Positions 1 through 62,480 of a DNA stretch of 64,000 bases are shown here, one piece after another. Made by a program: the position numbers and the translations under genes. The notes beneath the pieces were generated by a model, which did no database searches, was not told where the DNA came from, and was given only the letters and a program-made list of their open reading frames with translations. The first letter of the stretch is position 1, and each line of letters opens with the position of its first letter. Source of the DNA: Ginglymostoma cirratum (Eukaryota); assembly GCA_024137785.1 (NCBI GenBank), contig JAHRHZ010000264.1, positions 27,871,763 to 27,935,762 on the forward strand, read 5' to 3'.

Positions 1-109
1 CCTTCATCAGAAATCATTTCTGATGAAGGGTTTGGGCCCGAAACGTCAAGTTTTCCTGCTCCTATGATGCTGCTTGACCTGCTGTGTTCATCCAGCCCCA
101 TGCTTGTTA
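1..109 (+). mobile_element. Penelope-like terminal-repeat fragment in an inverted (palindromic) arrangement, truncated by the window start
   Basis: 1-14 (ccttcatcagaaat) is the exact reverse complement of 16-29. This is followed by a hammerhead-like core and the tail 'gatgctgcttgacctgctgtgttcatccagc', which resembles the tail after the GIY-YIG relic at 9917-10010. Confidence 0.75.
16..51 (+). ncRNA. Minimal type I hammerhead ribozyme motif with an intact core
   Basis: Stem I attt(16-19)/aagt(48-51); CTGATGA at 20-26; extra A27; stem II gggt(28-31)/gccc(36-39); GAAA at 40-43; palindromic ACGT; GUC triplet at 45-47. Confidence 0.65.
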
Positions 110-1550
110 TGGCAGAAATCAGAAAGCTGGAGAGTGAATGTATCATCAAGCTAATCCAGTTTGCACAATGGGCAGCACCGGTTGCACTGATTTTGAAGCC
201 TGTTGGGATTTTAAACAAACAGTAAACTGCTTTTCACTACTGGAAAAGACCCAATCCCTTGGATAGAGGACTAATACACAACACTGGCAGCGGGGGAGCT
301 GTGCTTTACAGAGCTGGACATGAACTATCCATATTTGCAATTGTGGTTAGATGAGGATTCCCAGATGTATGCAACAATTAATACCCATAAGGGTTTGTAT
401 CAATGTACAAGACTGCCATTTAGGGTATTGTCAGCCCGTTCGATTTTTCAGTGGACCACAAACATTTTGCAAGGTCTATCCCAGGTTGCCATCCATCTCG
501 ATGACATGCTAATAACAGAAAAAACTAATAATGAACACATAGAGAACTTGGACTTAATTCTAAGGTGTTTTTTCCAAAGTGAATATTTGCCTCAGAAGGG
601 AAAAATGTGGGTTCCAGGCCCGTCAAGTGACCAACTTGGGCTATAAAATTATGAGGGAAAATTCATACATAACCTGGCCTCCATCTTTGCATCAACTCCT
701 AAAAATGGGTTATCCTTGGAAATGGGTGCATAGACAAGCGCTAGCTTTCAGTGAAGTAAAGAAACAGCCACAATGATCCAAAGCAAGATCTGGTATTGAC
801 ATGCAATGCCTCCATACAAAGTGTCAGGGTAATATTAGCTCACAGGTGGCCCAATGGAGGGGAATGACCAACCGCGTATGGATCCAGGACTTCAGCTAAT
901 GCAGAGCATAAATACATTCAGATAGAGAAAGAAGGATTGGCGGTCATATTTGGAGTCAGGAGGTTCCACCAATACCTTTATACTGAACATTTGTGACAAT
1001 AATGGACCATAAACTGCCGACTTGGTCTGCTGAAAGAGGTCAAGGCAGTGCCACCCATTGCTTGGGGCCACATTCAGCGGTGGGCTATAATACTAAGTGC
1101 TTATATTACAAGTTAATACGCTGTCCAGGAGGCTGAGTAGCAAACGCAGATGCATTGGGCCACTTTCTGCTGGCAGGTACACTCCTGGTATTACTGCCAC
1201 TTAAAGAGTCTGTAATGGTTTTAAGTCTTCTGGTCACACTTCCAATCACAGCTGGCAATATCAGACTTTGGACACAAAAAAGACCCAGTCCTGTCAAAAT
1301 TGAAACAAGGGAAAACCAAAGGGCAATCGCAACAAGAATTGATATCTTTTTGGACCCAGATAGACCAGTTCACAGTAGAGGATGGCATATTATTATGGGG
1401 AGTAAGACTGATTGCCCAGAGCAAATGTAACTGAAAAATACCGGCTGAACTCTACCAGCGCCATCCAGAGATCTCCAAAATAATGATGGTGGCGAGAAGT
1501 TATGTCTGGTGGCCAGGATTGGATGCAGACTGCATTGGTGAGCAGTTACT
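110..1550 (+). mobile_element. Degenerate Gypsy/Ty3 LTR retrotransposon pol fragment (RT, RNase H, integrase zinc-finger region)
   Basis: ORF 320-646 reads ATINTHKGLYQCTRLPF...IFQ...IHLDDMLIT, a YxDD-like RT motif. ARSYVWWPGLDAD near 1490-1530. Many frameshifts. Confidence 0.85.
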
Positions 1551-1755
1551 GACAGATAGAAAGGGGAGTGTCAGAGATTCTGACACTCAAAGCTGACTCT
1601 GAAGAGGCAGTACTAGGATCAATGACACTTTATGCATAAATAAAGGGTGACTTGGTGACAGGATACTTGCCTCTGTGAAGTTATTTCAACTAGAGTCAAC
1701 GGAAATCAGAGAAAAGCTCTCCGTTCATTAGAAGCGTACATGATACAAAGAAAAA

Positions 1756-2710
1756 ATGGTTAATGTTATTAGAGGTCAGTCATTGCAGTTGAAAGATGAA
1801 GTTCCGCAGGAAAGTATCCTAGGCCCAACTACCTTCAGCTACTTCATCAATGACCTTGTCCCCATCATAAAATGTCAGAAATGGGGGCATGTTTGCTGAT
1901 GATTACACAATGTTCAGCACCATTTATGACTCCTCAGATACTGAAGGTCTGGGCAATATTTAGCTTTGGGTTGGCAAGTAACATTTGTACTGCATAAGTT
2001 CCAGACAATGATCTTCTCCAACAAAAGAGGATCCAACCATCACCTCCAGTGTCGCCTTTGCTGAATCTCCCACTATCAAAATCCTGGAGCTAACAATTGA
2101 GCAGAAACTTAACTGGGCTCGGCATATAAATACAATGGCTTCAAATGCAGGTCAGAGGTTAGGAATCCTGCAGCAAGTAACTCACCTCCAGACTCCCAAG
2201 AGCTTATCCAATATCTGCAGACAACAGTCAGGAGTACGATGGAATACTCCCACTTGCCCAGATAAGTGCAGCTCCAATATCACTCAGGAAGGCTAACATC
2301 ATTCCTAGATAAAGCAGTCGACCTGATTGGCACCACATCCATAAGCATCATCTCCCTCCACCAGTAACACTCCATAGCAGCATTGTGTACCACTTACAAG
2401 ATGCAATGCAGAAATTCACCAAGGCTTCTTAGACAGCACTTTCAAACACATGGCCACTTGGACAAGAGCAGCAGAAACATGGAAAAACTGGAAGCTCCCT
2501 CCAAGATACTCACCACCTTAACTTTGAAATATATCACTGATCCTTCACTTCCACTGGTTTAAAATCCTAAAATTCCCTCCCTAATATTATTGTAGGTCTA
2601 CCTATAGCATGTGGACAGCAGTGATTGAAGAAGGCAGTTGACCTGCACCTTCTCAAGGGCAATTAAAGCTGGCCCAGCTAGCAGCATCCAAATCCCATGA
2701 ATGATAAAGG
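1756..2710 (+). mobile_element. CR1/L2-clade LINE, RT region through the 3' tail, decayed
   Basis: VPQESILGP-like motif at ~1801 and MFADD at ~1889. The 3' tail 'ctcaagggcaatta...atcccatgaatga' is shared with 21810-22710 (-) and with the SINEs at 7500 and 37760. Confidence 0.8.
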
Positions 2711-2779
2711 ATTTTTCTTTTAAAAGACGTTGGATCACCAACTTCAAGGCAATAGTGCATGACAGAAAAAATTACACGG

Positions 2780-3400
2780 AAGTATGAGAAAATAGTGTTG
2801 GTGTGGTTGGCTTTTGACTTTATTAGCTGAGGCATAGAACACAGAGCAGGTAGGTCATGCAGAAACTGTATTAAATACTGGTTACGCCACAACTGGAGTA
2901 CTGCATGCAGTTCTGGCCACTCTATTTTTGGAAGGATGTGATTGGAGAGGATGCAGGGGAGATTTACCAGGATGTTGCCTTGCCAGGAGGGTCTGAGCTA
3001 TAAGGAAAGAATGGATGGGCTGAAGGTGTTGACCTTAGAGCAGTGAGAATGAAAGTGGGCCTGATAGCGGTGTCGAAGATTATGAGGGGTGAAGATAGCG
3101 TGGATAGGAAGGAACTTTTTTCCATTCATCAAGGGGTCAATAACCAGTGGGATAGACATAAGGTAGAAGGCTAAGAGGAGAACTGAGGAGATTTCTGTTT
3201 CACCCAGAGTGTGGCAGAGTCTGGAACTGACTATCTGAACGGATGGTTCAGTCAGACAGTGCTGAAATATTTAAATAGTATTTCGATGTTCACTTGCATT
3301 GCCACAGCCTCCAGCGCTGTAAGCAAATGGCTGGAAGATGAGATTAATGTAGTCAGAACATTGATTACTAGCACAGACCTGATGGGCCAAATATCATCTA
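2780..3400 (+). mobile_element. CR1 LINE 3' fragment
   Basis: LVxPQLEYCxQFWP-like segment at 2880-2920, then the typical CR1 3' end (ttcacccagagtgtgg; gatgggccaaat). Confidence 0.8.
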
Positions 3401-5928
3401 TGAAGATTGAAGCTTTTATGCATTTGGTTTTGTTGAATAGCTTACTGTCAAACATCGTTAAAGTTTGATGATGTGAACTGGATCCATCTTCCAGTATATT
3501 ACTAGGAGAGTGCTTTTCGGTTACAAGTCACAAATGAATTTCTTCACTTGTGGTGTTTTCAGTTGTTTACCTGGCTCAGAGCTGGTTATTGTCTGCTTGA
3601 AATTTTGATGAGCAAAAGTGACCTTATAAAACTTGCATATTAATAACAGGACATTAAACCAACTCTAATTAGAGTAAGCCTATTGTGGCAGTGACACTCC
3701 AGAGTTTCTCCTTAAATAGCTTTGTAATATCTAAAGATGTTGCTTCAGGCTATCTGAAAGAAAAACAATCATGGATGTTTCCACAGCAACTTAAGAGTTT
3801 ATTGGAAATACTGTTCAAATTCATTTCTAATAGCGCATTTAACTGTGTGTGATGCCTGATTGTTATTTTTATCCTGCCTTCCCAGAAGAAAAAGTAAAAC
3901 AAGAAAATGACACATTGGTCCAATTCATTTTGTATACCTCCCAGGGGAGATCTGATATGACCAGTGCGTTCATTTCTAAGTATTACTTTTTTTTTTCCAG
4001 TGTTTCCCTCTGAGTTGCAGTTCCTTTCGCCCATGTGTTCAGTTAATTCTATTTGGCAAGCATTATATCCCAACGCAACCTGGAATAAATATTGTTAGGT
4101 TTAATTATCATTAAAAACACTAATTCTCAACGGAGGCAAGCATACTGTGGTTTAGTCCCATAAAACCAGAATCGAATTTGCTTGATATCCAGCCTGTGAT
4201 GAATCAGTTATCATCTCAGCAATGTCAGCTATGGTTCAGATGAGAATCTGATCATGCTCTTTGGGTCATAAGTTGTGGGCTCAAGCCCCACTTCAGTGAC
4301 GTAAACATGGGTTTTAACTATTGAGTCAATAACACCTTTCAGGTTCAAGTGAGGGTCCTGACCTGTCACTGTGACAGAGCCAATCACCTGGCAGTGGGTT
4401 TCCATGAATTGGCCTTTTAGTGGCCAGAGGCCAAGTTCACTGACTGCTTTTGAGAGTTTTCCTAGCTTCATGGAGACAGGTTTTGGCCTAGCGGGGGTGA
4501 CGATGAGGGAAGTAAGTTGCAGAGAACTCATTTAGGATAGTTCCCTGACCTTGTGAAGCCTTCTGTTGCACTTCTATAATCTGGGCTGCCTCTGGAATTG
4601 CAAACCTGCTGAATGAAATTGGACAGACTTTTAACTTATTTAAGGACTTCATTAAGTACCAATTCCTGAGAGTGATAACATGTGGAAGGCATTGCAGATA
4701 GTCACACAATTGTGAGGCTAGGAAATTATTTTTTCAGGACTAACATTTGAGTCTGAGATTCTGTCTGCATTCTCGATTAAGTTGTATAGGTGAATAATGG
4801 AAAAGTGTATGAAGAGCTGTGGAAATGTGTTTAGATTTATTTGCTAACCCAACAGTAAATCAACCCAGACTAGTTAGATCAAATGGCCCATTCTGTTGCT
4901 GTAACTTCTACGTGTTTCTAAGTAAATCTATTAATATAAATGCGGATCTATGTTAACACTGATTTTTAAGTTCTGAGGGGAAACATTGCTATAAGAAGAA
5001 GAAGAAAGCCTCGGAATTGCACAGGCTCATGGAAATGAAGGACCTTGATGGGGATAACAAAAATTTTAGGTTTGCCTTGGGTACTATGTAATATCTAGAG
5101 ATTTGATTTAAAGTGCGTCCATGCTTGAAAAACTTGAAAATGTCAAATGAACTGGAATCTTAGATTAGTTTCTGACTTGAAATAATTCCTTTGCTTCGTG
5201 ACTCCATTGGCAACTCTGCTGCTTGCTTTGTTCAAGCAGTTTGACATGAATCTCTGGATATTTATGAAGAAAGGAATTAAATTGATCAGAGATCACTACG
5301 TCACTAAATGTTTAATTTTGGACCACTGCATATGTTCAGTGGGTAGAGGCATGCGCTGGTTTGTAACAGTGACAAATTGCACACTCAGTTTTAGAAATAC
5401 ATTGCAACATCTTGAAAATGGAAATGTAATTATGCAAATAGATGGATATTGCTGTGCAATCATTTCCAAATATCTTGGAGTTTAAAATATTCCAGGGAGT
5501 ATTCATTAATTTTAAGTCTTAGTTTTTATTTTACTCAAACGGAAGTATTTCTACCACAGAACTGTCAATATTGTAAGCATTCTCTGCGGACAATAACACT
5601 TCTAAATTACTTACCAACCAAATCTAATTTGAATAACATACTGATTGGCTACAAGGCAGTTGATTGAGCATACTGGGGGATGTTCTAAAGAAATTTGGAT
5701 CAAATCTTAAAAATGTCATGTGGCAGGCAGAGGGTTGATGATTATATTACTTTCATTTGTTAGCCATCCAATTATTTCTCGAATTGTGAAAATAGAAGGC
5801 AGGTGTATCATTAGATCTCAATCACAATTAACATGTTCATTAGATTTTAATTTTGTAACTGATTTTGTCGACAATGAATGTCTTTTACAGTTAGCAGTAA
5901 GACAAAAGAAATTAGATATTTGCCACAT

Positions 5929-6115
5929 CATCATAGAATCCCTACAGGCAGGCCATTCAGCCCATCAAGTCCACACCGACCCTCCGAAGATCATCCCACC
6001 CACATGCACCCCCTCCCCACCCCCCCCCCACCCCCCCCCCCGCCTACCCTATCTCTGTAACCCTGCATTTCCACCTAGCCTACACATCCCTGGACACCAT
6101 GGACAATTTAACATG
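5929..6115 (-). mobile_element. HE1-like tRNA-derived SINE, 3' part, with an expanded C-rich tract
   Basis: Reverse complement of the 3' half of the SINE at 55150-55470 (atcatagaatccctaca...gcccatcaagtccacaccgaccctc). Confidence 0.75.
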
Positions 6116-6249
6116 CCATCTGATGGAATTAAATAAAACAGCAAAACATGAGAACCATTATATTATGATTTGCCACTTAATCATCTTTAGCATTCAAACA
6201 TGAAAGAGCTGGGTAAGTTTTTAAACTTGAACCAGCATTAAAAGAAGAG

Positions 6250-6600
6250 AGAGGCATAGATTGGGTGAATAGCCAAGGTCTTTTTCCCAAGGTAAGGGAA
6301 TCCAAAACTAGATGGCAGAGGTTTAAGGTGACAGGGAAAATATTTTAAAGAGACCTAAGGGGCACCTCTTTCATGGAGAGAGTGGTGCATGTATGGAATG
6401 AGTTGTCAGAGGAGGTGATGGAGGCTGGTACAATTACAACATTTAAAGAGCATCTGGATGGGTGTATGAATAGGAAGAGTTTAGAGGGAAGTGGGCCAAA
6501 TACAAGCAAATGGGGCTAGATCAATTTAGGATATCTGGTCGGCATGGATGAGTTGGACCAAAGGATCTGTTTCTGTGCTGTACACCCCTGTGACTCTACG
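6250..6600 (+). mobile_element. CR1 LINE 3' end
   Basis: Typical CR1 terminal motifs: gtggtgcatgtatggaatgag, acaacatttaaagagcatctggatgg, gtttctgtgctgta. Confidence 0.8.
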
Positions 6601-7499
6601 CCTCAAAGAGGCTGACATGGCAAAAATTATCAAGGTGTAAACAATGAGGTAGCAAGGTTCTGTATAGATAAATGTAGAACATGAAAATGTGCTGGATTAA
6701 TATGCTAGTTTACACAAATTTATGATGGAAAGCCATTTCTATTGTGTACATGGTAGGGTGGAATTTGACTTCCTTTGCCTGGCATTAACAGGGCAACTAT
6801 GGTCTCCAAATGCTATGTAGCCAACTGCATTTCAAAAGGGTCCCACTGCCAGGTGTCCAAAGTGGCAGCCTGTCATTTCATCATTTCAGATATAGACTCC
6901 CTTTAAGCCAGAAAGTAGGGTCCTGCGACATGGTAATGGAAATAAAGAAGTTTGCCACAAGTTAACAGTCAGTTATTTCTGTGGGCTGCACAACAGCAGC
7001 TGTCCTGCAACTGCCTCGCCAGATTCAAATAAGATTGGAGCCTCAAATCACTGGAAGCTGTTTGCTTCCTGAAAGGGTGACTGTGCATTCTGCAATTCAC
7101 TCACTCAAAAGTGAAAAAGACCCAATGGCCTTTGCTGCACATACCCACTGAACACCCTGGGGTGGGTTTGCCCCCTGAATATAACAATGCTGTGAAAGGT
7201 GACTGCTCAATTCTTTGAACAGGAAAACTTTTCTTTTAAACTTGTTTGGCTGATTTTCAAAGATAAGTTTTTTTTTCATTTTTTGTCTTATAATGATACA
7301 CACCCCAATATAAGTGGCCACTTTTAGCAGGATATCCAAGTGGTGATGCTGGTTGTCAGGAGACAGTGGAACATTAACTGACCTGAGATAAATGGATAAA
7401 AAGCAGCAGAATATAAAACGTGTACATACAAGTTCAGGTTCCATGTCTGACCCTGGCGGATCTCTGCTAGCTGTGAAGAGCTATACAGGATTGTAGGTT

Positions 7500-7845
7500 G
7501 GGGCTGGTGATGGCCTAATGGTATTATCACTGGACTGTTAATCCATTGACTCACTGTTCTGGGGACCTGTGTTCAAATCCTGCCATGGTAGATGGTGGAA
7601 TTTGAATTCAATAAAATATATGGAATTAAGAATCTAAGATGACCATTGTCAGGGGAAAAACCCCTTTGGTTCCCTAATGCCCTTCAGGGAAGGAAACTGC
7701 CATCCTCATCCGGTCTAGCCTACATGTCACTTCAGACCTACAGCAATGTAGTTGACTATGAACTGCCCTCTGGTCAATTAGGGATGGGTAGTAAATGCTG
7801 CCTGGCCAGTGATGCCCTCATACCATTAATGAATTTTTTTAAAAA
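7500..7845 (+). mobile_element. tRNA-derived SINE with a LINE-shared 3' tail
   Basis: A-box-like tggcctaatgg and B-box-like gttcaaatcc. The tail 'caattagggatgggtagtaaatgctg' matches the LINE tail at 21810-21870 (-). Second copy at 37760-38050. Confidence 0.8.
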
Positions 7846-9359: not shown

Positions 9360-10012
9360 TTATGGTCTCTTCTGCGTTGGAGAGATGAAAAGCAGACTTT
9401 TCATCTGCTTTGCAGAGACCACTTTGCAGAACACCTCCATTCTCTCCATGAAAATGACCCGAACTTCCTGTTGCCTGCTACTTCAACATGCCATCATGCT
9501 CATTGGCTAAAATTTCTACCTTGGGCTTGCTGCAGTGCTCCAGAAAAGTTCAGTACAAGTTGGAAGAACAGCATCTCATTTTCCTCTAGAGGACTCTGCA
9601 ACCTTTAGAACTCAATATTGAATTCAATAATTTTGGGGCCTGAGCACCTTCTCCCATGTCCTTACCCCAACCCCAACACACTAGGCCTTGTCATCACAGA
9701 GGGTGTTACCCACAAACACTCCATTGTCAGCTACTAATGGTTCCCATTAGCAGCTATTCATTCTCCCAGGCTGACCTTTACCCATTCCTTTGTCTGTCCA
9801 ACTGATTTTCTCTCTCTGGGCTCCATCTCCTACTATCAGTTACTTGTGTTTCCACCGCTCCGCCTCCTCACCCACCTTCAGCATATATATCAACTTTTTC
9901 CTAACTACAATCAGTTCTGAAGAAGGATCACTGGACCTGAAACATTAACTCTGCTTTTTCTCCAAAGATACTGCAGACCTGCTGAGTCTTTCCAGAAATT
10001 TCTATTTTTGTT
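9360..10012 (+). mobile_element. Penelope-like retroelement 3' portion: GIY-YIG endonuclease relic plus terminal repeat with a hammerhead core
   Basis: Frameshifted GLFCVGEMKSRL / DHFAEHLHS / LPVACYFN / LEEQHLIF / TLQP / LNIEFNNF, the usual end of a Penelope ORF, followed by ctgaagaaggatcactggacctgaaacattaact. Confidence 0.85.
9913..9950 (+). ncRNA. Degenerate minimal hammerhead ribozyme motif
   Basis: Stem I agtt/aact; CTGAAGA at 9917-9923; imperfect stem II; GAAA at 9939-9942. CATT replaces CGTT, consistent with CpG decay. Confidence 0.5.
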
Positions 10013-10039
10013 GCTGTTGATCCTGACTTATTGCCACTC

Positions 10040-13409: not shown

Positions 13410-13465
13410 TAACAAGCATGGGGCTGGATGAACACAGCAGGTCAAGCAGCATCATAGGAGCAGGA
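13410..13465 (-). repeat. Perfect 56-bp inverted copy of positions 54-109
   Basis: taacaagcatggggctggatgaacacagcaggtcaagcagcatcataggagcagga is the exact reverse complement of 54-109. Confidence 0.9.
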
Positions 13466-15799: not shown

Positions 15800-18100
15800 T
15801 GCGAGTGGGGAAAAATTGTGTGGTGACCTAGGAATTAATTCAGGAGGTTGGAATTTACAACGGTAACCTATTTCTACTAACTCAGCGAAGATAAAGAAAT
15901 TAAATGTTCTACTTGAACTTGCATCTTCTCAGCATCTGAATCAGATTTAAATCTGCCATCATTTCTGTTTGCCAATCTGTGATGAAGAATGAGTTGAAGG
16001 TTCTTAAATGAACTCAAGTCGGATACACTGCTCATTTCCATTCACATTGCTTATACTTCTTTGCAAACTTTGCTGATACTTACAGTCTGAACTCCATTCA
16101 CTGATAAGAATAGAAAACATTCCTCCAAATGCTGTTTCGTTGCAGGTTTCACAAAGTGTTGTGAGCTCATAAGTGATCTCAGGTCACCACACCAATGACC
16201 AATCTCTGGCACCGCCATTGTCATGTCTTAATCATTGCTGGTGTATACTTTCCAGGATATTTGCCCAACAGTGAAATTGGAATAATCATTTTTCCATCAT
16301 ATACCAGCAAGTCATCTACAACTGTGAAATGTTATTGGTGCTCAAGCCATATGTTGGACTGAGGTGGACAAAGTCAAAAGTTGCAGGACACCAAGTTATA
16401 GTCCAACAAATTTATTTGAAATCACAAGCTTTCATAGCACTGCTCCTTCGTCGGGTGAAGAGTTCACTCGGCAAAGGGGCAGCGTTATGAAAGCTTGTGA
16501 TTTCACATAAGCCTGTTGGATTATGACCTGGTGTCTTGTGTGACTTCTGACTTATGTTCATGACTAACACATTGAACCTTTGGTGCGGCCATCCTTCCAC
16601 AAAATACCAAGAAATGATGACATATTCAATTTGCTTCTCCGCCCTTGTTATAATTTGATGGAGCTGATTAAACTGGCAGGCCACCATCTCCTATCAACTC
16701 GATAATATAACTAGTTACAATGGATTCTGTCTTCTATCTGGGTTCCACAATGGGTCTAGGAAGCCCTATGAAATCTTCTTCCTGTTGTCCAATGACCAGT
16801 TATTCAGGAACTGAAATGTCTTTGACCAGTACTTCCCTGACTGTTGTTCCTTGAACAGTTGCAGTTTGACTATAACTAGTTTAACACCTTCCGCCATTTA
16901 CAGAAGGTTGAGGTAAAGTACATATGTGCTGAATTAAGAATTCAAAATTCTGAAATAGATGCCTATGCTCCCCTATTTTACATCCCTTTTTGTTGTAGAG
17001 ATTCTTGCAGTATACCTTTAATCTTAAGTGGTATACCTCCTGAACCATGCAGTTGTGCAGTTGCTATTGTAGGTTGTAAACAACGTTACTTCATTCACTG
17101 AACCCCAGCTGATATTATGGTGACATTTGTTGTACATCAAACTTAAAATTAGTGAGGTGTTCATTAACATAAAAATGATCTTGCCAAAAATTGAATTCTG
17201 GATGATCCATTTTCCCTAGTAATACCTGCAGCTATTCTTTTATTGCAGCTTGTTCAACCACATGAACTATTTTGTGTGTAACTGTTTAATTCTTATTTAT
17301 CTTGATTTAGTTCTAGTTTGACACATCTTCTGGAAGTGACCTAGTGACTTCTGGAAAAAGCATTCTTTTTAATAACTTGACACTACTTAAACTTGTGAGC
17401 TTTTTTTCGCTCCACGTTGCTGACACTACTTGCAGTATCTGCCATATAGCCTACATTCTGTATTGGCTTCTCATGTGGGTCTTTCAAGCTTTTGTACCTT
17501 AAGAAATAAATAGATTTTGCTGTTCTATATAATCTTCTCCATTTAGGATTGATATGTGTTGTTTCTAGATTTCTGCTTTGCCCCTCATCTGAATGGCTGT
17601 TACCAAAGTCAAATTTTCCTTTTGAATGTATTAAATCTAACAAAGATTCCCTTATCAGGAATTTCAACTACAATTAATTCTGACTTTCAAGCTCTGTGGT
17701 CACTTTTCTCCACTAAACTGTAGAGATTATTAAAGATGCCATCTGTATTCCCTGAACTCTTCTATTAAATCTTGCTCTTTTCAGAATTTTATTTTATGTA
17801 ATGTTAACGTAACAGTCTAAAACATGCATAACTTCAAGTATTTGTTGCTTCTCTTATGCCTTGGTAAGTTATTAATCTTGTCAGCTGCAAACTTATTTGG
17901 ATATAAATGTTTTATTTATTTGTTCAGCTTCTGATTTAGTATCCACTTTGAACACAATTCTATAGCTTAAGAATAATTTTCTCAAGGAATATGCAATTAT
18001 GTGTTATACTTGGCTCTTTTCTGAAATTATATCTTCCTGGAAATTTTATTTCTGCTGTCATATATTCCTAATGTAATTATACATTTGCCTCTGAGGCAGC
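15800..18100 (-). mobile_element. Highly degenerate Gypsy LTR retrotransposon (gag, protease and integrase relics)
   Basis: Minus strand: protease-like TNFKFD..NVTIIS at ~17110-17157; GGIPLKIKG at ~17015-17042; QIEYVII...EGWP at ~16590-16640; integrase-like ISEWSS..AKFAKKY at ~16040-16110. Confidence 0.6.
16365..16560. mobile_element. Palindromic Penelope-derived short element (~95-bp inverted arms) nested in the Gypsy relic
   Basis: Arms 16365-16459 and 16463-16560 are imperfect reverse complements around a 3-nt centre. Each arm has a degenerate hammerhead-like segment ending in tatgaaagcttgtgatttca. Confidence 0.75.
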
Positions 18101-52100: not shown

Positions 52101-54692
52101 TATGCTTTCCCAAATGATTGATATTTGGATCAAACATTATCATAAATTCACGGCTCAAAATTATCGGGATGTCTGTGATGTGGTACACGGAGTTGAACCC
52201 GAGTCCAAATTTCCCAACTTTGTCCACCTCACTCCTCTTCCGTGATCCACCTAGTCTGGTTATGTTTATAAAGTCAGAATCTGTAAAATCAGAGTTATTA
52301 AATGACCACAGAGCAGGCCCATGGCACACGGCCATTCCTGGATCCAGAAGGTTTTCTCGGATGTCTGCATTTCTCCGCATGTCAATCAGGAAGCTGCATT
52401 CAGTTGCCTCAGCATCGTCTGCATTTTGCAGCAGCTCCTTAAAAATGTCTGCAACTGATGGGTATTCTTCAAGAATGTTTCTGATGCGCACTGTGAGTGG
52501 TTCTCTTTGTCCAGACTGCTCAAAGCCCAAGTTCTCTGGGTTAATGAGCCTGGTACTGAGGCATGGCACTTGCAGTGCTTGAGCCATTTTCATAGGGATG
52601 TCCTCATGTACCAAATAGATGGTCTCTAAGGAATCATCAAGCAACTCATTAAGATCATCTACTTTGATGTCACAGTAGCTACAATTGTGAATGGGTTCCA
52701 TTACTAATCTGTTGGGATCTTTACTGCAATGAATAGGTATTGGAGTATCAAGGCTAACTTGGATCTGATTACCATATAACCATCTTAAGATATTCAGTAC
52801 CAGAAGTAGGTTTTGTTTATTTGCCTGTTCATCGATCTCATCAACAGATTGTTGTTTGATAGTCTTGATAATGCTGAAGACATACTCAGTATTTACCTCT
52901 TCTAGTGCTCCAAAGAAGGTAAACAACTTACGATATTTTGCCATGGTTTTTGGAAGGATATGTAAGTAAGGCTCCAGATCAAGCTCTTGAACTGGTTTAA
53001 TAGCTACCTGCTCAGGAACAGAAAAAAGTTTTCCTGTCCACACCCAGGGAAATGTCAATGAACTGAATGCTTCTTTACCTTTCTCCAAATTGTCCTGCAT
53101 ATATTCATAAATATCAAGCAAGAAATGTTGAAACTGGTACCATTCATCATCGTTGAAATCCTGAGATGTATGCCAATCAACCACATTCTTCAAGTGCCTT
53201 AAAACCTGGTTTAAACTGGGCTCTTTGGAAAAACCCAACAATGTTCTCACCTCCAAAGAGATGTTCTCCACAAGGGGCACTGCAGAACCCAATAATACAG
53301 CTTCCGATAAATCTCGCATTTCACATGCCTTGTGAAAATCTAACACATCTCCTTTCCAAGTTAGGGATTGAGGATAATTCAGAGGACGTTTCTTACAAAC
53401 TGGAACCCACTTTAACTTCTGCATTGTTGTCTTTGTTTCAGTCGAAATCAATAAACTCTTTTTTTTGTGCAGAATCACAAGTAATGTTTTAGCTTTTCTG
53501 GTCACCAGATCTTGCTCAAATTTGTTACTGCTCTGCAGTACTTCAATTCTTTTGGCCACTTGTACAACTTCCTTTTCAGTTATCTGATCTTCATTTTTTA
53601 AACCTATTTGCCTCAGAGCATGTAAGATATCTGGCGTTGAGGTGAAGCTGTCTGGAGGAAAAAATGTTTTCTCATCCGCATAAAACAAGTTCTGTAATGT
53701 TTCTATTTCAGGATCAAACAATTCATTAGCTGACATTAATTTTCCCTGAGAAGTAGAAATAAATTTCAAGGACCTCAGCCATTCTATAAACAAAACATTT
53801 TCATCCTTGAGGAAAGCTAAATTGATCAGAATCCAAATCACAATATCTGTGATGTCCTTGTTAGAGTAAAAGTTTTTCTCAATGTCTTGTAATATAATCT
53901 TTAGGCAGTCTGTACTTTTTAATTGTTCAATTTTCAGTAAGGTAACAAGCCGTATTGAAGCTTCATCACTGCAATTTACTACTGGAATGGATAGGCGTAT
54001 GTCTGATGGAAGCTTTGCAGTGTGATGCAAGACTTTACTTCCTTTTAACGCTATAAAACTTCGGCTGCTTTTCTCAGAGGATGGTTCAACTTTGTTAAAG
54101 ATCATCAGTTCCTGAAGAATTTTCTTGTCTCGATCATTCACTTCTGGCAAACTAGCTAAGAAATATCTCAGTGCAACCTTGTGTGTTGGAGGTAGTAACA
54201 TAATCTGACTGAAAATCTTTTGTGGCGCTGCCTTATCCAGGATCTGTAACAAAGTGCTAGGCAAAGGAGAATGGATGTATCTTTTTATCAGAGGGTGCTG
54301 CAAACATGGGTCAAGTTCTTTAATGACAACTCCACCAAGTTTCTCAATTGTGTCTGGGAGGAACTCAGGGAGTTGGGATTCATTGTCAGCTTCTACGATT
54401 ATGGGAGACGGATCTCGGAGCCGTAAAAGACTAACTGTAGTTTGGGTTTCATCTAACGGCATCTTGGGGATCAATGGCAATTCTTCAAACAGAGTCAGGT
54501 CTTCAGGGAAATTGTGATACAAATATCTCCACAATGTTGTCAGCCAAGACATGGGTGGGTGTTTCTTCTGTACATTCCCTGGTGACCACTGCACCATCAT
54601 CTCTCTCCCAGGCCAGCAGGCATTCATCAGTTCCTTAATAAGGCGTGCAGAACGATCGGAGGTCATTATTTGCAGTTGTGTACAGAGCCGAC
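43126..54692 (-). CDS. SACS: Sacsin giant terminal exon (11,567 bp of coding sequence; two Hsp90-like sacsin repeats, J-domain, HEPN). Upstream exons were not found in the window.
   Basis: 3846-aa ORF with two ELLQNADDA / [15 protein letters not shown] GHKL-like modules, a J-domain [10 protein letters not shown] (HPD at ~43852-43860) and a HEPN-type C-terminus ([19 protein letters not shown]). Acceptor atacag|GT at 54693/54692 extends the frame to [10 protein letters not shown]. Confidence 0.97.
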
Positions 54693-55013
54693 CTGTATAT
54701 TAACAGCAGTAAAAACAAGAGTCAAAAGGTGCAATTCATAATTAAATAATAAAAATATTTAACTTAAACATAAAGCCATGGAAATTGTCCTAATGGGAAC
54801 AATACATTCTAGCTCACCATATAAATAGAGAAGAAAAGCTGCATTAACAACTCACAACAATCAGCACATCTAAAATTATGGCAAAATCTGTAAAATGCAC
54901 TTAAACAACAAAATTGCAACTATGGGCAAAATTATTAGAACCGTTGATATATCTATAATCATATTAAATGGTTTAGGCCAGTGCTTCCTTCTTCAAGTCT
55001 TCACTCATTTATT

Positions 55014-55102
55014 ATATTGGGATGTTTCATATCTCTTGACCTGACAAGCTCATGTCTTGAAAATGAGCTTGTCAGGTCAAGAGATATGAAACATCCCAAT
55101 AT
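55014..55102. repeat. Perfect inverted repeat with 40-bp arms and a 9-nt spacer
   Basis: 55014-55053 is the exact reverse complement of 55063-55102. The spacer is gtcttgaaa. Confidence 0.95.
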
Positions 55103-55148
55103 TCGAAAACATTGGAAAACAAAATTATTCTATGTTACTCCTAAACTA

Positions 55149-55472
55149 GGGGCAGCACGGTGGCTCAGTGGTTAGCACTGCTACCTCACAGTGCCAACAA
55201 CCTGGATTCGATCCCACCCTCGGGCGACTGTCTGTGTGGAGTTCGCACATTCTCCCTCTGTCTGCGTGGGTTTCCTCTGGGTGCTCCAGTTTCCTCCCAC
55301 AGTCCAAAGATGCGCAGGTTAGGTCAATTGTCCATGCTTAATTTCCCATAGTGTTCAGGGATGTGTAGATTAGGTTGGTTACAGGGGAATGAGTCTGGGT
55401 GGGATGGTCTGAGGGTTGGTGTGGACTTGTTGGGCCAAAAGGCCTGTTTCCACACTGTAGGGATTCTATGAA
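55149..55472 (+). mobile_element. Full-length HE1-like tRNA-derived SINE
   Basis: A-box tggctcagtgg, B-box-like gattcgatcc, central ctccctctgtctgcgtgggtttcctc, and a CR1-like tail ending ggattctatga. Confidence 0.88.
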
Positions 55473-55621
55473 TCCCATCTGACTACTTTCTTCAGACAAC
55501 ATTTCAAAAAGGTTTCAGGGTAACCTGCAGTTAGTTCTAATAGATTTGTAAATAAACATCAAAATTATAGCATAATTCCATGGATATTCAACAAAGAATT
55601 CTTTGAAAAAAGTGTAATTTT

Positions 55622-58270
55622 CATAGAAATACAGAAAATAGGAGCAGGAATAAGTCATTTGGCCACTTGAGCCTGCTCTGCCATTCAATATGATCACGGC
55701 TGATCTTCCAGTATCTTGGAACTGCTTTCTCTCCATATCCTTTGGTCTCTTTAGCTCTAAGGACTATATCTAACTCCCTCTTGAAAATGTTCAATGTTGT
55801 GGCCTCAACCATTTTCTGTTACAGAGAATTCTCTGGGTGAAAACATTTCTCTTTAACTCAGTCCTAAATGGTCTCCCCCATATCCTTAAATTGTAACACC
55901 TGATACTGAACTTCCCAATCATCAGGAACACCCTTCCTATATTTAACCAGTCTAATCCTGTCAGTATTTTATAGGTTACTATGAGATATCAGCCCCACCC
56001 CACTCTTCTAAACCCCAGTGAATACAGTCCTAACTGATCTAGCCATCCCAGGAGTCAGTCTGGGAAGCCTCTGTTGCACTCTCTCCATAGCCAGAACTTA
56101 GAAATGGAGGCCAGAATTGCACACAGTAATCCAGGTGTGGTCTCACCAAGGCTCTGTTCAATTGCAGTAAGACATCCCTGCTCCTGTGTTCGAATCCTCT
56201 CACTACGAAGGCCAACATACCACGTGCCTTCTTCACCACCTGCTGCACCTGAATTTCTACTTTCAGCAATTGATGTATAAGGATATCCATGCCTTGTTGC
56301 ACTTCCCCCTTCCCAATCAATCACTATTCAGATAATAATCTGTCTTCCTGTTTTTGCTACCAAAATGAATCTACATTATACTTCAGCTTCCATGCATCTA
56401 TCCATTCACTCAACTTGTCCAAAGCACACTGAAGCACCTCTGCAACCTCCTCACAGTTCACCCTCCCAGCCAGCTTTGTGTCGTCTGCAAACTTGGAGAT
56501 ATTACATTTATTTTCCTCATCTAAATCATTGATATACGCTATGAATAGCTGGGGATCTTTGTGGTACCTCACTAGTCACTGGCTGTCACTTGGAAAAAGA
56601 CCCATTTATTCTTACTCGTTGTTTCCTGTCTACCAACCAGTTTGTTATCCATGCCAGTACATTACCTCAATCCCATGTGCTTTAATTTTATACGCTAATC
56701 TCTTACATGGCCCTTTATCAAAAGCTTTCTGAAAATGAAGGTAAACCACACCAACTGGTTTCCCCTTATCAAGTTCCAATAGATTTGTCAGGCACGACTT
56801 CCCTTTCGTGAAGGCATGCTGGCTCTCTCCAATTCTATTAGTGTTTTAGAATCTATCAAATCCTGAAAGATGACCACAAATACATCCACTATTTCTACAG
56901 CCACTTCCTTAAGTAGCCTGGGATGTAGATTATCAGGACCTGGGGATTTATCAACCTTAAATCCTGTCAATTTCCCAACACCATTTCCCTACTAATACTG
57001 ATTTCCCTCAATTCAAATCTCACAAGACCCTGTGCTCCCTAACATTTTGAGGATGTTATTTGTGCCCTTCTTTGTGACAATAGAACCAAAATATGTATTT
57101 AATTGGTCTGCCAAATTTGTTCCCATTATAATTTCCCCTGTTTCTGATTGTGGGGTACCTAAATCTGTCTTCACTAACGTTTTCCACTTCACATACCTAT
57201 AAAAGCTTTTACAATCAGTTTGCATGTTGTTTAGAAGCTTACTCTCATCCTCCATTTTTCCCCCTTTTAATCAATTCTCCTTTGCTAAAATCTAAAGTAC
57301 TCCCAACCCTCAAGTCTACTGCTTTTTTTTGGCCAATTTGTATGTCCCTTTCTTGAATTTGATCCAAGTCCTAATTTCTTTCGTTAGTCATGGTAGGTAG
57401 ACCTTTTCCATTTACTTTTGTGCCAAACAGGAATAAACAGTTGTTGCAGTTCCTTCATGCACTCTTTAAATGTTCGCCATTACTATCCCTTCAAGTAATG
57501 AATAATAGGATTGGTTAGACTGACATTAGTAGTGGGGAATATGCTCAGGTCCATTATAAAAGATACAATAGCAGAGCGGTTGGAAAACACTAATAGAATT
57601 GGAGAGAGCCAGCATGCCTTCACTATTCCCCAAATTATCATAACCAGCCCACATCTCCTACCATCACTGTTTGCTTAGTTTAGATTCAGACCTCTAGTCT
57701 CAGAATCAACCAATTCTTTCGATCTTAATGAACAATTCTATCATATTGTGGTCACTTTTCCAAAAGGAGCCTTACACAGCTAGATTGCCAATTATTCCTT
57801 TCTGATAACACAATACCCAGTCCAGTCTTGCCTGGTCTCTAGATGGTTCCTCAACATGTTAAGCCAGCAAACCATCCCATATAGATTCCAGGAATTCCTG
57901 CTCTACAGTACTGATTTGATTTGACCAATCTATGTGCAGATTAAATTCACCCATAATTACAGCCATACCTTTGTTGATGCATTGCTTAATGCCTTCCCCA
58001 TACACTACCACTACAGCTTGGGGCTTGAACTACAACCTCCAATACTGTTTTCTGCACCTTGATGTCTTGATATCCATATAGGTTCTGCTTCATTACTGCA
58101 ATAATTCCCTCTTTAACCTCAACTGCTTTTTTTTTTCCTTGTCCTTCCTGAAAACTGAATGTTCTTGAATATCAAGGGGTATTCAGTTACTCAGTTCTCA
58201 TCCCTGGTCACCTTGCAGCCATATCTCCAGAATCTCAACTATATTATACCTGTTCATACCTATCTGTACA
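55622..58270 (-). mobile_element. Long CR1 LINE ORF2 fragment (endonuclease to RT to 3' end), frameshifted
   Basis: Minus-strand ORFs give DKSPGPDNLHPRLLKE, YINDLDE...SKFADDTKL and ALVRPHLDYCVQFWPP. Confidence 0.92.
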
Positions 58271-59549
58271 ACTGACTGCATGAAATGTTCCAATCTATCA
58301 AAAGCATTCTAATAGATACCGATGGACACAACTCATCTTTTACCATTGCTGTGTGCTTCCACATTATATATTAAACTTCTACATTGAAATATGTAAACGA
58401 TAACCATAGACAAGTTATAGATAGTTTCAAAGTGCTGTCAATATGGAGCCAACCATCTTACTTAAAAATAAAATACATCCAAAATCAAAGTTGACTAAAG
58501 GAGAACAGGTTTTGTCAAGATATTTACCTCAGATTGATTACCCTTGTTTGGATTATCCTAACAGAACATACAATGCTTGACTATAAATCAAGTTAAAATA
58601 ATGTTACAATAACTGTAGCATTGAACATAACAGAGATGCAGCTTTTCTGAAAACAAATGCTTGTTTTGTGAAAACATGATATTCAATAACAATTTCAGTT
58701 GCAGAAGGGAAAGCATTTACAGCTTAATTCCTAAAGAGCAACTTCTAAAAAAAGATGCTTCAGATCAATAGAAAGCTTACAGCAGTTGGGATAGTGCTTT
58801 CTAAACATAGGCAATGTCTGACTAATACAAGCCTTTACATATATTTCAGCTATGCAAAAACATAAAAGATCACTGGAATTTCAATTTAAAATAAGTCTTA
58901 AAGGAAAATCTTGTGGGGGTGATTTTCATCTCTCTATTGCACAAATATATCTCTGGGCTGCAGGCAAAGGAAAACCGGTAGCTGACTTTAGCTGTTTACT
59001 TTCTCAGATTTTAGGGTGGACCTTGAATTGGGCCACTAGTAGAAACAAGAAAATCAAAGATCAACACTACCAAAACTGGACGTCATGTTTGCATTAAATA
59101 GGTGACTCCTGCAACTAATATTTGTGTCACCTTCCCCATGTTCAAGATCACAACATCACTCTTCTCCCTGCCCATGTTGCTCCTGCCATTTCCTGCTCCC
59201 AACTGAAAACCATGGCTTGTACGAATCAGGAGAGAACCACTTTCTGAGATATTTGACGGGATCCTGAATTGCTACGTACAAAAGTGAGGTAATTTTTTTT
59301 TGCAGGGGTGAGTGGATTTAGCAAACTAGGAAGCCAAATTAATGGGGAGGAGCAGGCCTCATCTGGGGTGTACTAAATTCTTAAAAGGTTTCTGACAGTG
59401 AACATTATCCCTTACGGGAAGATGATCTGAAGATTCCAATCTGGCAAGAGGAACAGAAGCCAAAGCAGCAAGGAAGAGTGAATAAAGCTTCAGTTGAGAG
59501 TGAAAGGGAAGAGAGAATGTTTGCAGGCATTCTTAACTTTCCAGCAGCA

Positions 59550-60290
59550 GGTAGACAGAGGAAAACATACCTGAAATTAATGAAGAGGTTTCATTTCTCT
59601 GGGGAAATCACAGATTGACAATCAAATGCAAGCTACTGTCACAATATTATTTCTTGCATCAAAGGTCATTGCTGTCCTCAACTTATTTGCCTAAAGGTTG
59701 CCTGTCACATCAGCTGGTTTGGAGGTCATGTTTGCATCAAATCGGTGACTCCTGCAACTAATGTCTCTTTCCCGATGTTCATAAGGGAAAATAACTCTGG
59801 GTTTTCTGCCAGCTCCTGAAGTACCCAAATTTAAAGCATCACAATGCATCCATACTGTCCCAAAGGAAAGATGCAAACGATAGCTTACAGTCCTTAGTGT
59901 GCAACTCCTGTGCAATCACCAACAGTGCAGACAAGAGCTAACCTCTACACTCATGGTCTATGATTCTTAACAGAAACGCATACTCAGCTGTTGTACTATA
60001 GTCAAATCCATTATCAAACAAAGGCCTCAGGGAAAATAAAAAGACACTGAAGTCCTCAAAGGTCCAAAATCTGGGGATGGTATTGCTAGGTACTTGCAAT
60101 GCAATCCAGAAACAACAGAATTGCAGATCTGCAAAAGTGACAACACAGTCATCCACCTTCAGATAGGATCATTATCAATTTGGTGAGGATGATATTGGTG
60201 AAAGAGATGAGGAAGAAGACGGCCTCCAACCTCAAAGCTGCTTGTAGCAGCAGGGTAGGCATCTGCAAACCCAGCTGAAGACCCACATCT
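59550..60290 (+). mobile_element. Degenerate Harbinger (HARBI1-like) transposase relic
   Basis: RQRKTYL..RFHFS; ASKVIAVLNLFA (helix-turn-helix region); LNRNAYS (NRKGY-like); acidic tail near 60185-60220. Confidence 0.45.
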
Positions 60291-60689
60291 ATTTGGTTGC
60301 CCAGCCTGCCAAATCCAATTGAAAAGTTTGAAAGTACTTCCATTTTATATTAAGTCCTTAAGGTAAAATGTGAAGTATTAACGTGCATATGTCCACATCA
60401 CATTTCATAAAATTGCAAACCATTAATTGTGCATCTCCAACCCTCATTTTTCACACAAGAAACAAAAACGCAGTGTCAGATTGTCTTCATTAGTCCAGAA
60501 CTTGACAATCTACGCATGAGCAATCCGGACAGATGTTGGGGAATAAGCAGTTCCACTGAAATAACCATACACTCTATGGTTGCCTGCAGGTTGCCAATCC
60601 TATGCATCAGCACCACAATATTGCTGGGTAGAGGGAACCTTCACACTCTGTAGCAGTCCATGAGTGTGTTCAAGATTGTACTCATTAAT

Positions 60690-60955
60690 CCCAGGCCGTG
60701 TTTGAAAAGACCAATACTCCAGGTGAGGTCTCACCAAGGCACTGCACAAGTGCAGCAAGACATCACTGCTCCTGTACTCAAACCTTCCCACTGTTAAGTC
60801 CAACATCCCAGTTGCCTTGTTCACTAGCTATTGTACCTGCATGCTTACTTCCAGCAACTGGTGTACAAGGACACCCAGGTTTCGTTGCACTTATCCCCTA
60901 CCCAATCTATTAATTCAGATAATTGCCTTCCTCTTTTTGTTACTGAAATGGATCA
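60690..60955 (-). mobile_element. CR1 LINE fragment
   Basis: ORF 60600-60824 reads KATGML...FEYRSSDVLLHLCSALVRPHLEYW. Confidence 0.85.
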
Positions 60956-61679
60956 TTTGAAGTTAACCATTACAGAAGTATAAGGTAAGGTGAGGGGGCA
61001 GGTGTTCATGAACTACCATGTTGGTGCCAGTGTGAGGGTTTGTTTTATTTCGCAGCCAATCAGCTAGGCAACTGAACTAAATGATCCCTCCACCATTCAC
61101 TTCTACATTCTCTAAAAGATAATTACATTTAGACCATGCTGAATTTTTACTTATGGAAATTCGGCCCAGTTTCACCAAATTACATTTATGCACACATTCT
61201 TTTGCCTTTGTTTTGTTAGTCCTACTATTTTCAATGCTCCTCTCAGTTTTTCTCTCTTGTCCCACCAAAGGTGAAAATGAGCCAGTGTATTTTTCCTCTT
61301 CTTCCCAAGTTTTACAATGTTGAAATCAGGACCCATTACATACTGCGTGAACAGATGAAAATGGCAGGGCAATCAGTGACCATCTCCTAAACACCCAAAG
61401 CTCACCTAAGGCTATAAAATGTGCCCACAGTAGGTCCACCCCTAGCAGTTTGGACACTGCCTGCATATGCAAATCTGGATCTTGTGTTTCTTCCAAGTGC
61501 AAACAGACAGTGGGTACAGCCCACATGCTTTTCCCATCTGACCAAGGTGGTGGGAGGTCTAACCAGTTATCCTTAAGGAACTGTTGGAATATGCCACCAA
61601 TATGGTCAGAAACATTTCTGGTTGAAAATGACTGTGATCTGTCGCTGAAGGTTGGAATAAACAAACTCACCATTGATCA

Positions 61680-61815
61680 GATCCAAGGAAGGGTCACTCG
61701 ACCCGAAACGTTAACTCTGAATTCTCTCCATAGATGCTACCAGACCTGCTGAGCTTTCCGAGCAATTCCTGTTTGTGTTTCTGATTTACAGCATCCACAG
61801 TTCTTCCAGTTTTTG
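61680..61815 (+). mobile_element. 136-bp Penelope-derived insertion with a hammerhead-like motif and a 12-bp target-site duplication
   Basis: caccattgatca occurs at 61668-61679 and 61816-61827. Inside: gggtc-actc-gaccc then GAAACGTTAAC. The core reads CCAAGGA instead of CTGAGGA. Confidence 0.85.
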
Positions 61816-62343
61816 CACCATTGATCACGTTGGACAACTTTTAAAACTGTTCCATTATTGGAACTGTTGCACTACCAGCCTCACTTAATTTCCCCTTCTT
61901 ACTACAACCTTCTGACTTAAAACCCATCCTTGAGATCATCTACATCGTGACTTGCACTGTTTTCTGTCCTAGTCATTTAAATATTGGTGATATAGTGTAC
62001 ATGACTTCATTCTTTACCATTTATTAAAAAAAATCCCAAGTAAGTTTAAAGGTCAAAGGCACCATTTAGCTTTCAGATTTAAAATGAAACACAATTAATG
62101 ATTACAAAGCAGTATTATGTTCGACAAGATTTAGTTTTGGAGCACCATGACTCACTTCTGAAAGTCCATGACCTTTAAATTCAGTGCCAGACTTAAAGAG
62201 GAGAGCTAAACATACCAGTGTTATGACATTTATTTTTCAAATATAAACCAGCTTTCCACTTTCATTAATAAAATTACTCATTTGTTATTTCAGTTACTCA
62301 TCATCATCATGTGTTATTCCCGAAGGCAGGTCTTTGGCACTTA

Positions 62344-62480
62344 TAAAAACCAAAAGAACTGCAGGTGCTGTAAATCAGGAACAAAAACAAAGTTGCTGGA
62401 AAAGCTCAGCAGGTCTGGCAGCATCTGTGAAGGAAAAAACAGAGTTAACATTTCGGGTCTGGTGACCCTTCCTCAGAACC
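62344..62480 (-). mobile_element. Penelope-derived short element with a hammerhead motif, same family as 61680-61815 but inverted
   Basis: Minus strand reads gtt CTGAGGA a gggtc-acca-gaccc GAAA tgtt aac, then cagatgctgccagacctgctgagcttttccagcaac. Confidence 0.85.

What the first reader, a model, noticed from the sequence alone, without database searches (positions are those of the whole stretch)
1..62480. Dispersed family of tiny hammerhead-bearing Penelope-derived elements, possibly a non-autonomous ribozyme retroelement system
Seen: five loci in 64 kb share the layout CUGANGA-A-stem II-GAAA-(C/T)GTY-tail, at 16-51, 9913-9950, 16365-16560, 61680-61815 and 62344-62480. Stem II loops differ (ttgg, actg, actc, acca) while pairing is largely kept. 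One copy is still attached to a GIY-YIG ORF relic. The two ~136-bp stand-alone copies both begin within a few bases of the ribozyme core. Inference: these are either repeatedly 5'-truncated Penelope insertions or an independently mobilised SINE/retrozyme-like unit whose boundary is set by the ribozyme. I cannot tell whether this family has been described in sharks.
Basis: partly seen in the sequence, partly recalled or inferred. Interest (0 to 1): 0.7.

Follow-up and report, generated by a model that had tools for sequence, protein, structure and literature searches.

The report
Penelope first-copy stubs, not retrozymes
These short repeats are stubs of three families of a known jumping gene (Penelope-like elements) that start at the front edge of the element's small ribozyme motif rather than at its cut site, likely because they are the first stretch the copying enzyme makes before it reaches the start of the RNA and then stops or jumps, which would help explain how these elements rebuild their end repeats.

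Summary
The repeats are real but are not one family. The five loci belong to three autonomous Penelope-like element (PLE) families with RT plus GIY-YIG ORFs, and only loci 1, 2 and 5 keep CUGANGA. They are not an independent SINE or retrozyme: short and ORF-linked copies share subfamilies, and 0 of 47 sampled family-A arms were tandem. Truncation is not random either. 24 of 47 arms start at -4..+6 of an initiator-like A lying 29-31 nt after a TATA-like box (seen in all three families); 1 of 47 starts near the predicted cut site. 3' ends fall near +100 or +136, the known PLE tail. In 15 of 26 young composites, an ORF-start piece joins directly onto a unit beginning at -2..+2; 10 of 21 scorable composites sit inside one TSD. 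Best reading: reverse transcription starts inside the 5' pLTR, runs off the RNA 5' end, then integrates, pairs head-to-head or template-jumps. No RNA 5' end was measured. This scan already noted the start-site pile-up in other genomes; the jump junctions were not found in its notes or in ten paper searches.

The parts
1..14 (-). Inverted arm (+1..+14 visible) of a family-B head-to-head pair; runs off the window edge
   Evidence: Exact reverse complement of 16-29
16..110 (+). Young family-B (B1) stub, +1..+95, intact minimal hammerhead at 16-51, no tail; predicted cut after 47
   Evidence: 99% identical to other B1 copies; 46,214 exact matches of a 39-mer from it in the genome
9417..9643 (+). 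Broken C-terminal GIY-YIG endonuclease coding relic of a family-A PLE
   Evidence: tblastn 9452-9640, 73%, E 1.8e-21; blastn from 9417
9884..9889 (+). TATA-like box (TATATA) at -29 of the predicted start
   Evidence: Sequence; same spacing in family consensus; function inferred
9911..9917 (+). Initiator-like TCAGTTC; predicted +1 = A9913, also the first base of hammerhead stem I
   Evidence: Sequence; 5' ends pile here; not measured on RNA
9913..10016 (+). Family-A pLTR end, +1..~+104, hammerhead 9913-9950 with intact core but decayed stem II/III; no tail
13410..13465 (-).
   Evidence: 100% identical to 54-109
16352..16460 (-). Family-C arm, +2..+110, with part of tail; core broken
   Evidence: 85% to a family-C copy
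16463..16553 (+). Family-C arm, about +3..+91, head-to-head with the arm above; core broken
61668..61679 (+). Left TSD of locus 4 (12 bp)
   Evidence: Repeated at 61816-61827
61680..61814 (+). Family-A solo stub, +2..+136 with tail, ACTC-loop subfamily; core broken
61816..61827 (+). Right TSD of locus 4
62343..62479 (-). Family-A solo stub, +2..+138 with tail; core intact; 96% to consensus; 10-bp TSD with 1 mismatch at 62334-62343 and 62482-62491

Best explanation
The short copies are stubs of autonomous Penelope-like elements that begin at a fixed site just before the hammerhead, likely because they are the first cDNA the element makes: reverse transcription would start inside the 5' end repeat at about +100 or +136 and run off the RNA's predicted start at +1. 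Shown: three families carry RT/GIY-YIG coding sequence; the unit is the downstream part of the pLTR and in long copies runs on into the ORF start; 5' ends pile at +1 and 3' ends at two sites; units occur solo, head-to-head, or behind a piece of the ORF start, often inside one TSD. Inferred: +1 is a Pol II start (TATA at -29..-31 plus initiator); the two 3' ends are RT start sites as in Anolis PAc; after run-off the cDNA is joined to the target (solo stub), joined to a second cDNA primed from the other strand (head-to-head pair), or extended by a jump to another point of element RNA (composite). Uncleaved RNA is the main template, the ribozyme is a passenger in the stubs, and stubs, lacking the TATA box, are probably dead on arrival.
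For: Family A, 678 kb unmasked of 960 kb fetched at fixed coordinates: 47 arms; 5' ends 24 at -4..+6, 9 at +7..+16 (all in pairs), 1 at +32..+38, 0 at -100..-21, 5 beyond -100; 3' ends 21 at +96..+110, 17 at +131..+138. Genome-wide exact counts: 1,133 of 7,825 (ACCG loop) and 30 of 337 (ACTC loop) arms also keep -9..-1 (uncorrected for decay). Young B1, position-ordered: 17 of 60 usable arms start at -1..+4, 10 at +9..+12, 1 at +31..+37; family B in the fixed-coordinate sample 22 of 80 at -2..+4; family C 7 of 13 at -5..+6. TATA-like box and initiator at the same spacing in A, B and C. Copies that continue into the ORF start also begin at +1: 8 of 30 in A at -2..+2, 10 of 30 in B1 at -1..+2. 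Composites: 26 of 30 B1 loci holding the ORF start join a downstream end unit; 15 joints at -2..+2, 1 at +33, 10 at -72..-369, none at -71..-3; TSD of 9 or more matches around 10 of 21 scorable units (swapped-flank control 0.7% with the near-identical rule). In A, 8 of the 15 loci whose ORF piece ends inside the fetched DNA join a unit starting at -6..+2. 10 head-to-head pairs, 0 tail-to-tail, 0 tandem. TSDs in 9 of 34 short units against 0.3% of swapped flanks. PAc nicks and extends both strands, starts RT at two internal sites, needs RNA downstream of those sites, and uses uncleaved RNA (PMC11167929).
Against: No RNA 5' end was measured; only assembled contigs were available and they cannot show a start. 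Family-A homology drops after +2 rather than +1 (G at +2 in 55 of 82, A at +1 in 44 of 82 solo arms). A test for a cap-derived extra G was inconclusive (5 of 29). D. virilis Penelope is described as having a TATA-less internal promoter (PMC2377424). 25 of 34 short units showed no TSD of 9 or more. Labels short/long are somewhat clustered on the tree (38 changes against about 49 shuffled, 0-1 of 500 shuffles as low), and one weakly supported clade is 29 short to 1 long. The composite sample was picked by identity to one composite, which is itself 1 of the 15. PAc is a Poseidon-clade element; these carry the Neptune/Nematis-type linker.
Confidence: 0.66

Rival explanations
1. The +1 boundary is set by RNA structure or protein, not by the RNA end: RT stalls or is released at the base of hammerhead stem I on a longer read-through transcript, then stops or switches template.
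For: Stem I starts exactly at +1 in A and B.
Against: Stem I is only 4 bp and RT copying backwards unwinds its 3' strand first; in family C stem I starts at +4 while ends lie at -5..+6; TATA and initiator spacing in three families is not explained.
Confidence: 0.14
2. An independently mobilised non-autonomous SINE-like unit of 100-136 nt, transcribed from its own copies and moved by PLE protein in trans.
For: Fixed ends, own TSDs, very high number; one clade of 29 short to 1 long.
Against: Short copies are as close to long copies as to each other (median nearest identity 0.934 both ways) and need 38 label changes on the tree; the ACTC subfamily has long members reaching -1159, -1529 and -1572; stubs lack the TATA box and the RNA downstream of the tail that PAc needs.
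Confidence: 0.07
3. Retrozyme-like route: ribozyme cleavage and RNA ligation or circularisation make the template, and RT copies around the circle.
For: 1 of 26 composite joints lies at +33, the predicted B cut product; a few arms start at +34..+38. Two-hammerhead composites of 270-600 nt exist. LINE-1 chimeras are reported to come from RNA pre-ligation (PMC8857657 passage).
Against: 15 of 26 joints lie at -2..+2, not at the cut; upstream partners vary from about +260 to about +1490; 0 of 47 family-A arms are tandem.
Confidence: 0.05
4. Ordinary random 5' truncation of insertions primed at the 3' pLTR.
For: Long copies do end at scattered positions, -118 to -1392; PLE insertions are described as highly 5'-truncated.
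Against: End rate per nt is 0.068 at -4..+6 against 0.0007-0.006 at +17..+70 and 0-0.003 beyond -31; genome-wide counts drop sevenfold or more across 11 nt.
Confidence: 0.04
5. The boundary is a 3' splice site, as the D. virilis intron ends at helix I.
For: Family A reads CTGAC...pyrimidines...CAG|TT just there; Cervera and de la Pena report that geometry.
Against: B and C have no AG at +1; sequence upstream of solo copies is unrelated flank, not a shared exon; where the continuation was found (10 of the 15 B1 joints) none begins with a GT donor.
Confidence: 0.04

Closest known systems
Minimal type I hammerheads in pLTRs of metazoan PLEs (Cervera and de la Pena 2014, PMC4209133; read results and discussion)
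   Same: Short helix I, extra base between positions 9 and 10.1, G10.1-C11.1, palindromic 2-nt stem III insert, mostly single dispersed motifs ascribed to truncated PLEs, pairs on opposite strands.
   Different: No mapping of copy ends to a start site; sharks are not named in the sections read.
EN+ PLE insertion architecture: pLTR, inverted 5'-truncated copy, optional 30-40 bp tail, Neptune/Nematis CX2-5CxxC linker (Craig 2021 PMC8557442; Arkhipova 2013 PMC3846280; passages read)
   Same: All of these features; TATA plus Inr-like motif in a pLTR and TSDs around inverted units were noted in Adineta.
   Different: There solo pLTRs are ascribed to recombination or deletion and head-to-head pairs to self-priming on antisense RNA; here many stubs carry their own TSD and share one 5' end.
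Poseidon PAc of Anolis, internal RT initiation (Frangieh 2024, PMC11167929; main text read)
   Same: Two RT start sites bounding the tail, both strands primed, ribozyme cleavage dispensable.
   Different: Different clade; its ORF starts inside the ribozyme, whereas in B1 the first ATG of the long frame is at +172; run-off stubs and jumps are not described.
Non-LTR retrozymes (Li, Clavereau and Pollet 2026, 10.64898/2026.07.22.740005; read through discussion, supplements not seen)
   Same: Type I hammerhead, pLTR-derived, reported in one chondrichthyan genome.
   Different: Defined by tandem units each with a hammerhead; these copies are solo or head-to-head and are not bounded by the cut site.
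Template jumping by R2 RT (PMC8857657, passages) and retroviral strong-stop strand transfer (recalled)
   Same: cDNA reaches a template 5' end and continues on another template position.
   Different: Not shown for any PLE; the landing points here are scattered, with no fixed repeat-guided transfer demonstrated.

Membership tests
EN+ Penelope-like element | Single ORF with RT and C-terminal GIY-YIG | tested here: met
   Family-A majority sequence gives RT (YIDD) to GIY-YIG in one frame; Pfam RVT_1 E 5e-5 (A copy) and GIY-YIG E 1.6e-3 (B copy), both under gathering cut-offs, 3 of 5 pieces no hit; family C shows the same motifs in broken frames
EN+ Penelope-like element | pLTR at both ends, partial tandems | tested here: met
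   L161 has pLTR-ORF-pLTR; 29 of 30 ORF-start loci in A carry pLTR sequence, 28 directly upstream in the same orientation
EN+ Penelope-like element | Inverted 5'-truncated copy and optional 30-40 nt tail | tested here: met
   10 head-to-head pairs, 8 with the tail on one arm only; long inverted pairs
Neptune/Nematis clade | CX2-5CxxC linker before the endonuclease | tested here: met
   Present in A, B and C translations; definition
Neptune/Nematis clade | RT phylogeny with reference elements | not tested
   No Repbase/Dfam references on hand
Minimal type I hammerhead | Core, stem I/II, extra base 9/10.1, palindromic stem III | tested here: met
   Family sequences A, B, C; intact in 3 of 5 window loci; stem II differs between families with pairing kept (by eye; no R-scape)
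Minimal type I hammerhead | Self-cleavage, as dimer or protein-assisted | not testable with these tools
   Monomer fold gives stems I and II for A; co-folding gave no clean dimeric hammerhead
Non-LTR retrozyme | Tandem monomers each with a hammerhead | tested here: not met
   0 of 47 family-A arms tandem; B1 two-unit composites are made of unequal pieces
Non-LTR retrozyme | Unit ends at the ribozyme cut site | tested here: not met
   1 of 47, 1 of 60, 1 of 26 joints
Non-LTR retrozyme | Unit-length circular RNA | not testable with these tools
   Only contigs were offered
SINE | Own lineage apart from the autonomous partner | tested here: not met
   Tree and nearest-neighbour identity; long members of the ACTC subfamily
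SINE | Internal promoter | not tested
   No eukaryotic promoter tool; TATA-like box lies outside the stub

The most novel reading that the evidence does not exclude
Penelope-like elements replicate through a strong-stop-like first cDNA: RT can start only at the 5' copy of the tail, runs off the capped RNA start after 100-136 nt, and must jump to the RNA's 3' part to make a full copy. This would regenerate the pseudo-LTR tandem, make most insertions stubs, and give the hammerhead the job of cutting the 3' repeat so that the first 32-34 nt form a terminal redundancy like a retroviral R region.
Probability: 0.35. Interest if true: 0.75.

Novelty: new member of a known kind. Interest (0 to 1): 0.48.

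Why it matters
The elements and their ribozyme motif are known kinds. What is open is how PLEs form tandem and inverted pseudo-LTRs; Schostak 2008 states there is no obvious mechanism and Frangieh 2024 leaves later steps unvalidated. A very young family with over 46,000 near-identical ends records intermediates to the base, and points to run-off at the RNA start followed by joining or jumping. That is directly testable with the existing in vitro PLE assay.

Tried and rejected
Rfam scan: no hammerhead hit. A second 5' pile-up at -144 in B1 was an artefact of an indel in my reference; gapped alignment spreads those ends from -118 to -1392. Cap-G test inconclusive. Family-C starts at +30 reflect a diverged reference stem II and were not used. 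A DNA search for B1 returned nothing because its words are too common; a pattern count then gave 46,214. The 100% match between 54-109 and 13410-13465 is not a rearrangement but the youth of B1. Contigs of three runs show loose ends at L161 2519-2521 where +1 is 2520; this repeats the DNA boundary and is no evidence of transcription. No TSD was established for loci 1, 2, 3 or 13410. Extending a family-A consensus to the 5' end failed to overlap. Lunse 2017 was not held, so what it lists for cartilaginous fish was not seen. Paper searches; none listed a paper describing start-site-bounded PLE stubs or jump junctions, but most subscription journals, Repbase and Dfam are not covered.
Full report
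Observation. The five places hold hammerhead-shaped sequence. A minimal descriptor finds loci 1, 2 and 5 only, against 0.01 hits per shuffled window. Locus 4 and both arms of locus 3 have broken cores. BLAST splits the loci into three families: A (loci 2, 4, 5; about 80% alike), B (locus 1; about 70% to A) and C (locus 3). Locus 3 is a head-to-head pair and locus 1 opens with an inverted arm. A sixth fragment lies at 13410-13465. Rfam gives no hammerhead match.

Parent elements. The window lies in a 4.36-Gb genome; its species was not worked out. Long family-A copies give a majority sequence with an RT, a CX4CxxC linker and a GIY-YIG domain, a 3' UTR and the unit. The locus-2 relic matches it at 73%. 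One copy has pLTR-ORF-pLTR, the unit running straight into the ORF start. B and C copies carry the same protein motifs; Pfam hits are weak and under the curated cut-offs. B1 is very young: one 39-mer has 46,214 exact matches, and copies are mostly 95-100% alike. The fixed-coordinate sample (678 kb unmasked of 960 kb) held 47 A, 80 B and 13 C arms, which extrapolates roughly to several hundred thousand arms each for A and B; positions were not truly random.

Where copies start. I number from the A of an initiator-like motif. It lies 29, 31 and 30 nt after TATAAA, TATTTAT and TATAAA in A, B and C (the motif consensuses are recalled). In A and B the ribozyme fills +1..+38 and +1..+36, with predicted cuts after +34 and +32. 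In A, 24 of 47 arms start at -4..+6, 9 at +7..+16 (all in pairs), 1 at +32..+38, 0 at -100..-21; end rate is 0.068 per nt at the peak against 0.0036 around the cut. Genome-wide, 1,133 of 7,825 and 30 of 337 exact arms of two subfamilies keep -9..-1. In B1, of 76 arms 16 were dropped (N at the edge, or the reference); 17 of 60 start at -1..+4, 10 at +9..+12, 1 at +31..+37. A search by the 3' part alone gave the same picture. So the boundary is at the ribozyme's front edge, not its cut.

Where copies end. 3' ends are bimodal: +96..+110 and +131..+138 in A, about +96..+98 and +129..+137 in B1. This is the known optional tail, which in Anolis PAc lies between two RT start sites. Among the 47 A arms there are 10 head-to-head pairs, 8 with the tail on one arm only, and no tail-to-tail or tandem pairs. 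TSDs of 9 or more matches flank 9 of 34 short units, including whole pairs, against 0.3% of swapped flanks; 25 show none. Long copies form the same inverted pairs.

No separate short lineage. On a tree of 113 short and 58 long arms the label needs 38 changes (shuffled about 49, so some clustering; few columns, weak support); nearest-neighbour identity of short copies is 0.934 to either class. One clade is 29 short to 1 long, but that ACTC subfamily has long members: 11 of 12 fetched reach the TATA region and three reach past -1100.

Composites. Copies holding the ORF start can only come from RNA in which the unit runs on into the ORF. They too begin at +1: 8 of 30 in A, 10 of 30 in B1. In B1, 26 of 30 such loci stop within the ORF (about +260 to +1490) and join a downstream end unit; 15 joints are at -2..+2, 1 at +33, 10 at -72..-369. 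One of the 15 is the query's own locus. A TSD encloses the whole composite in 10 of 21 scorable cases. Where the ORF continuation was found (10 of 15) it has no GT donor. In A, 15 of 30 loci run past the fetched DNA; 8 of the other 15 join a unit starting at -6..+2.

Mechanism. PAc needs RNA downstream of its RT start sites. A 3' pLTR ends at those sites and lacks that RNA, so priming should favour the 5' copy (inference). The first cDNA would then be 100-136 nt long and end at the RNA start. Joining it to the target gives a solo stub; joining to a second cDNA primed from the other strand gives a pair (PAc extends both strands); a jump gives a composite, and a jump to the RNA's 3' part would give a full copy with a new pLTR. 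R2 RT jumps templates in vitro, though that paper doubts a physiological need and cites RNA pre-ligation for LINE-1 chimeras. Against: no RNA end was measured, A copies mostly begin at +2, the cap-G test was inconclusive, and a stall at stem I remains possible.

Comparison. Minimal hammerheads in dispersed truncated PLEs are described (PMC4209133, parts 1-2 of 4 read). Inverted pLTRs, tails, TSDs and a TATA plus Inr-like motif are described (PMC8557442, PMC3846280, passages). pLTR regeneration is called unexplained (PMC2377424, passages). Retrozymes are tandem and reported in one chondrichthyan (bioRxiv 10.64898/2026.07.22.740005, parts 1-3 of 5; supplements not seen and may list these families). 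PMC11167929: parts 1-2 of 4. PMC6765202 and PMC8857657: passages. Ten searches listed no paper on start-bounded stubs or jump joints; Dfam and Repbase were not available. This scan's notes already hold the start-site and double-priming readings on other genomes, and one single internally deleted element; look-ups for template jump or strand transfer found none with all words.

Verdict. Real, abundant, known kind of element; the proposed independent ribozyme-bounded retroelement is not supported. The value lies in the end and joint statistics as a testable clue to the PLE copying cycle.

Noticed in passing
window 55014-55102: Near-perfect 89-bp hairpin with about 40-bp arms; weak Rfam MIR5998 match far under its gathering score. 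No match to the three PLE families.
   Followed up: no
window 56808-56847 and 57584-57623: 40-bp perfect inverted repeat about 740 bp apart; possibly the ends of a local inversion.
   Followed up: partly
L031:6847-6983 (upstream neighbour of the window): Another B1 stub 99% identical to locus 1, with a stuttered inverted centre.
   Followed up: partly
L273, L367, L283, L280/L281: Short re-copies of the first 7-20 nt just ahead of +1, as if RT stutters at the template end.
   Followed up: no
L107 and L191: A fourth hammerhead family with a 6-bp stem II and the same palindromic stem III.
   Followed up: no
L355:1937: One composite joint falls at +33, the predicted 3' cleavage product start, with a 1-nt microhomology; a possible trace of cut RNA used as template.
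   Followed up: partly
L346, L365, L370: B1 copies with long open N-terminal frames (289-479 aa) starting at +172 and a Thr/Ala-rich linker; suggests recent activity.
   Followed up: partly
window 1848-2665, 2820-3387, 56124-56371 and others: Other dispersed repeats unrelated to the finding; 120-600 looks like a decayed LTR-retroelement RT fragment by eye.
   Followed up: no
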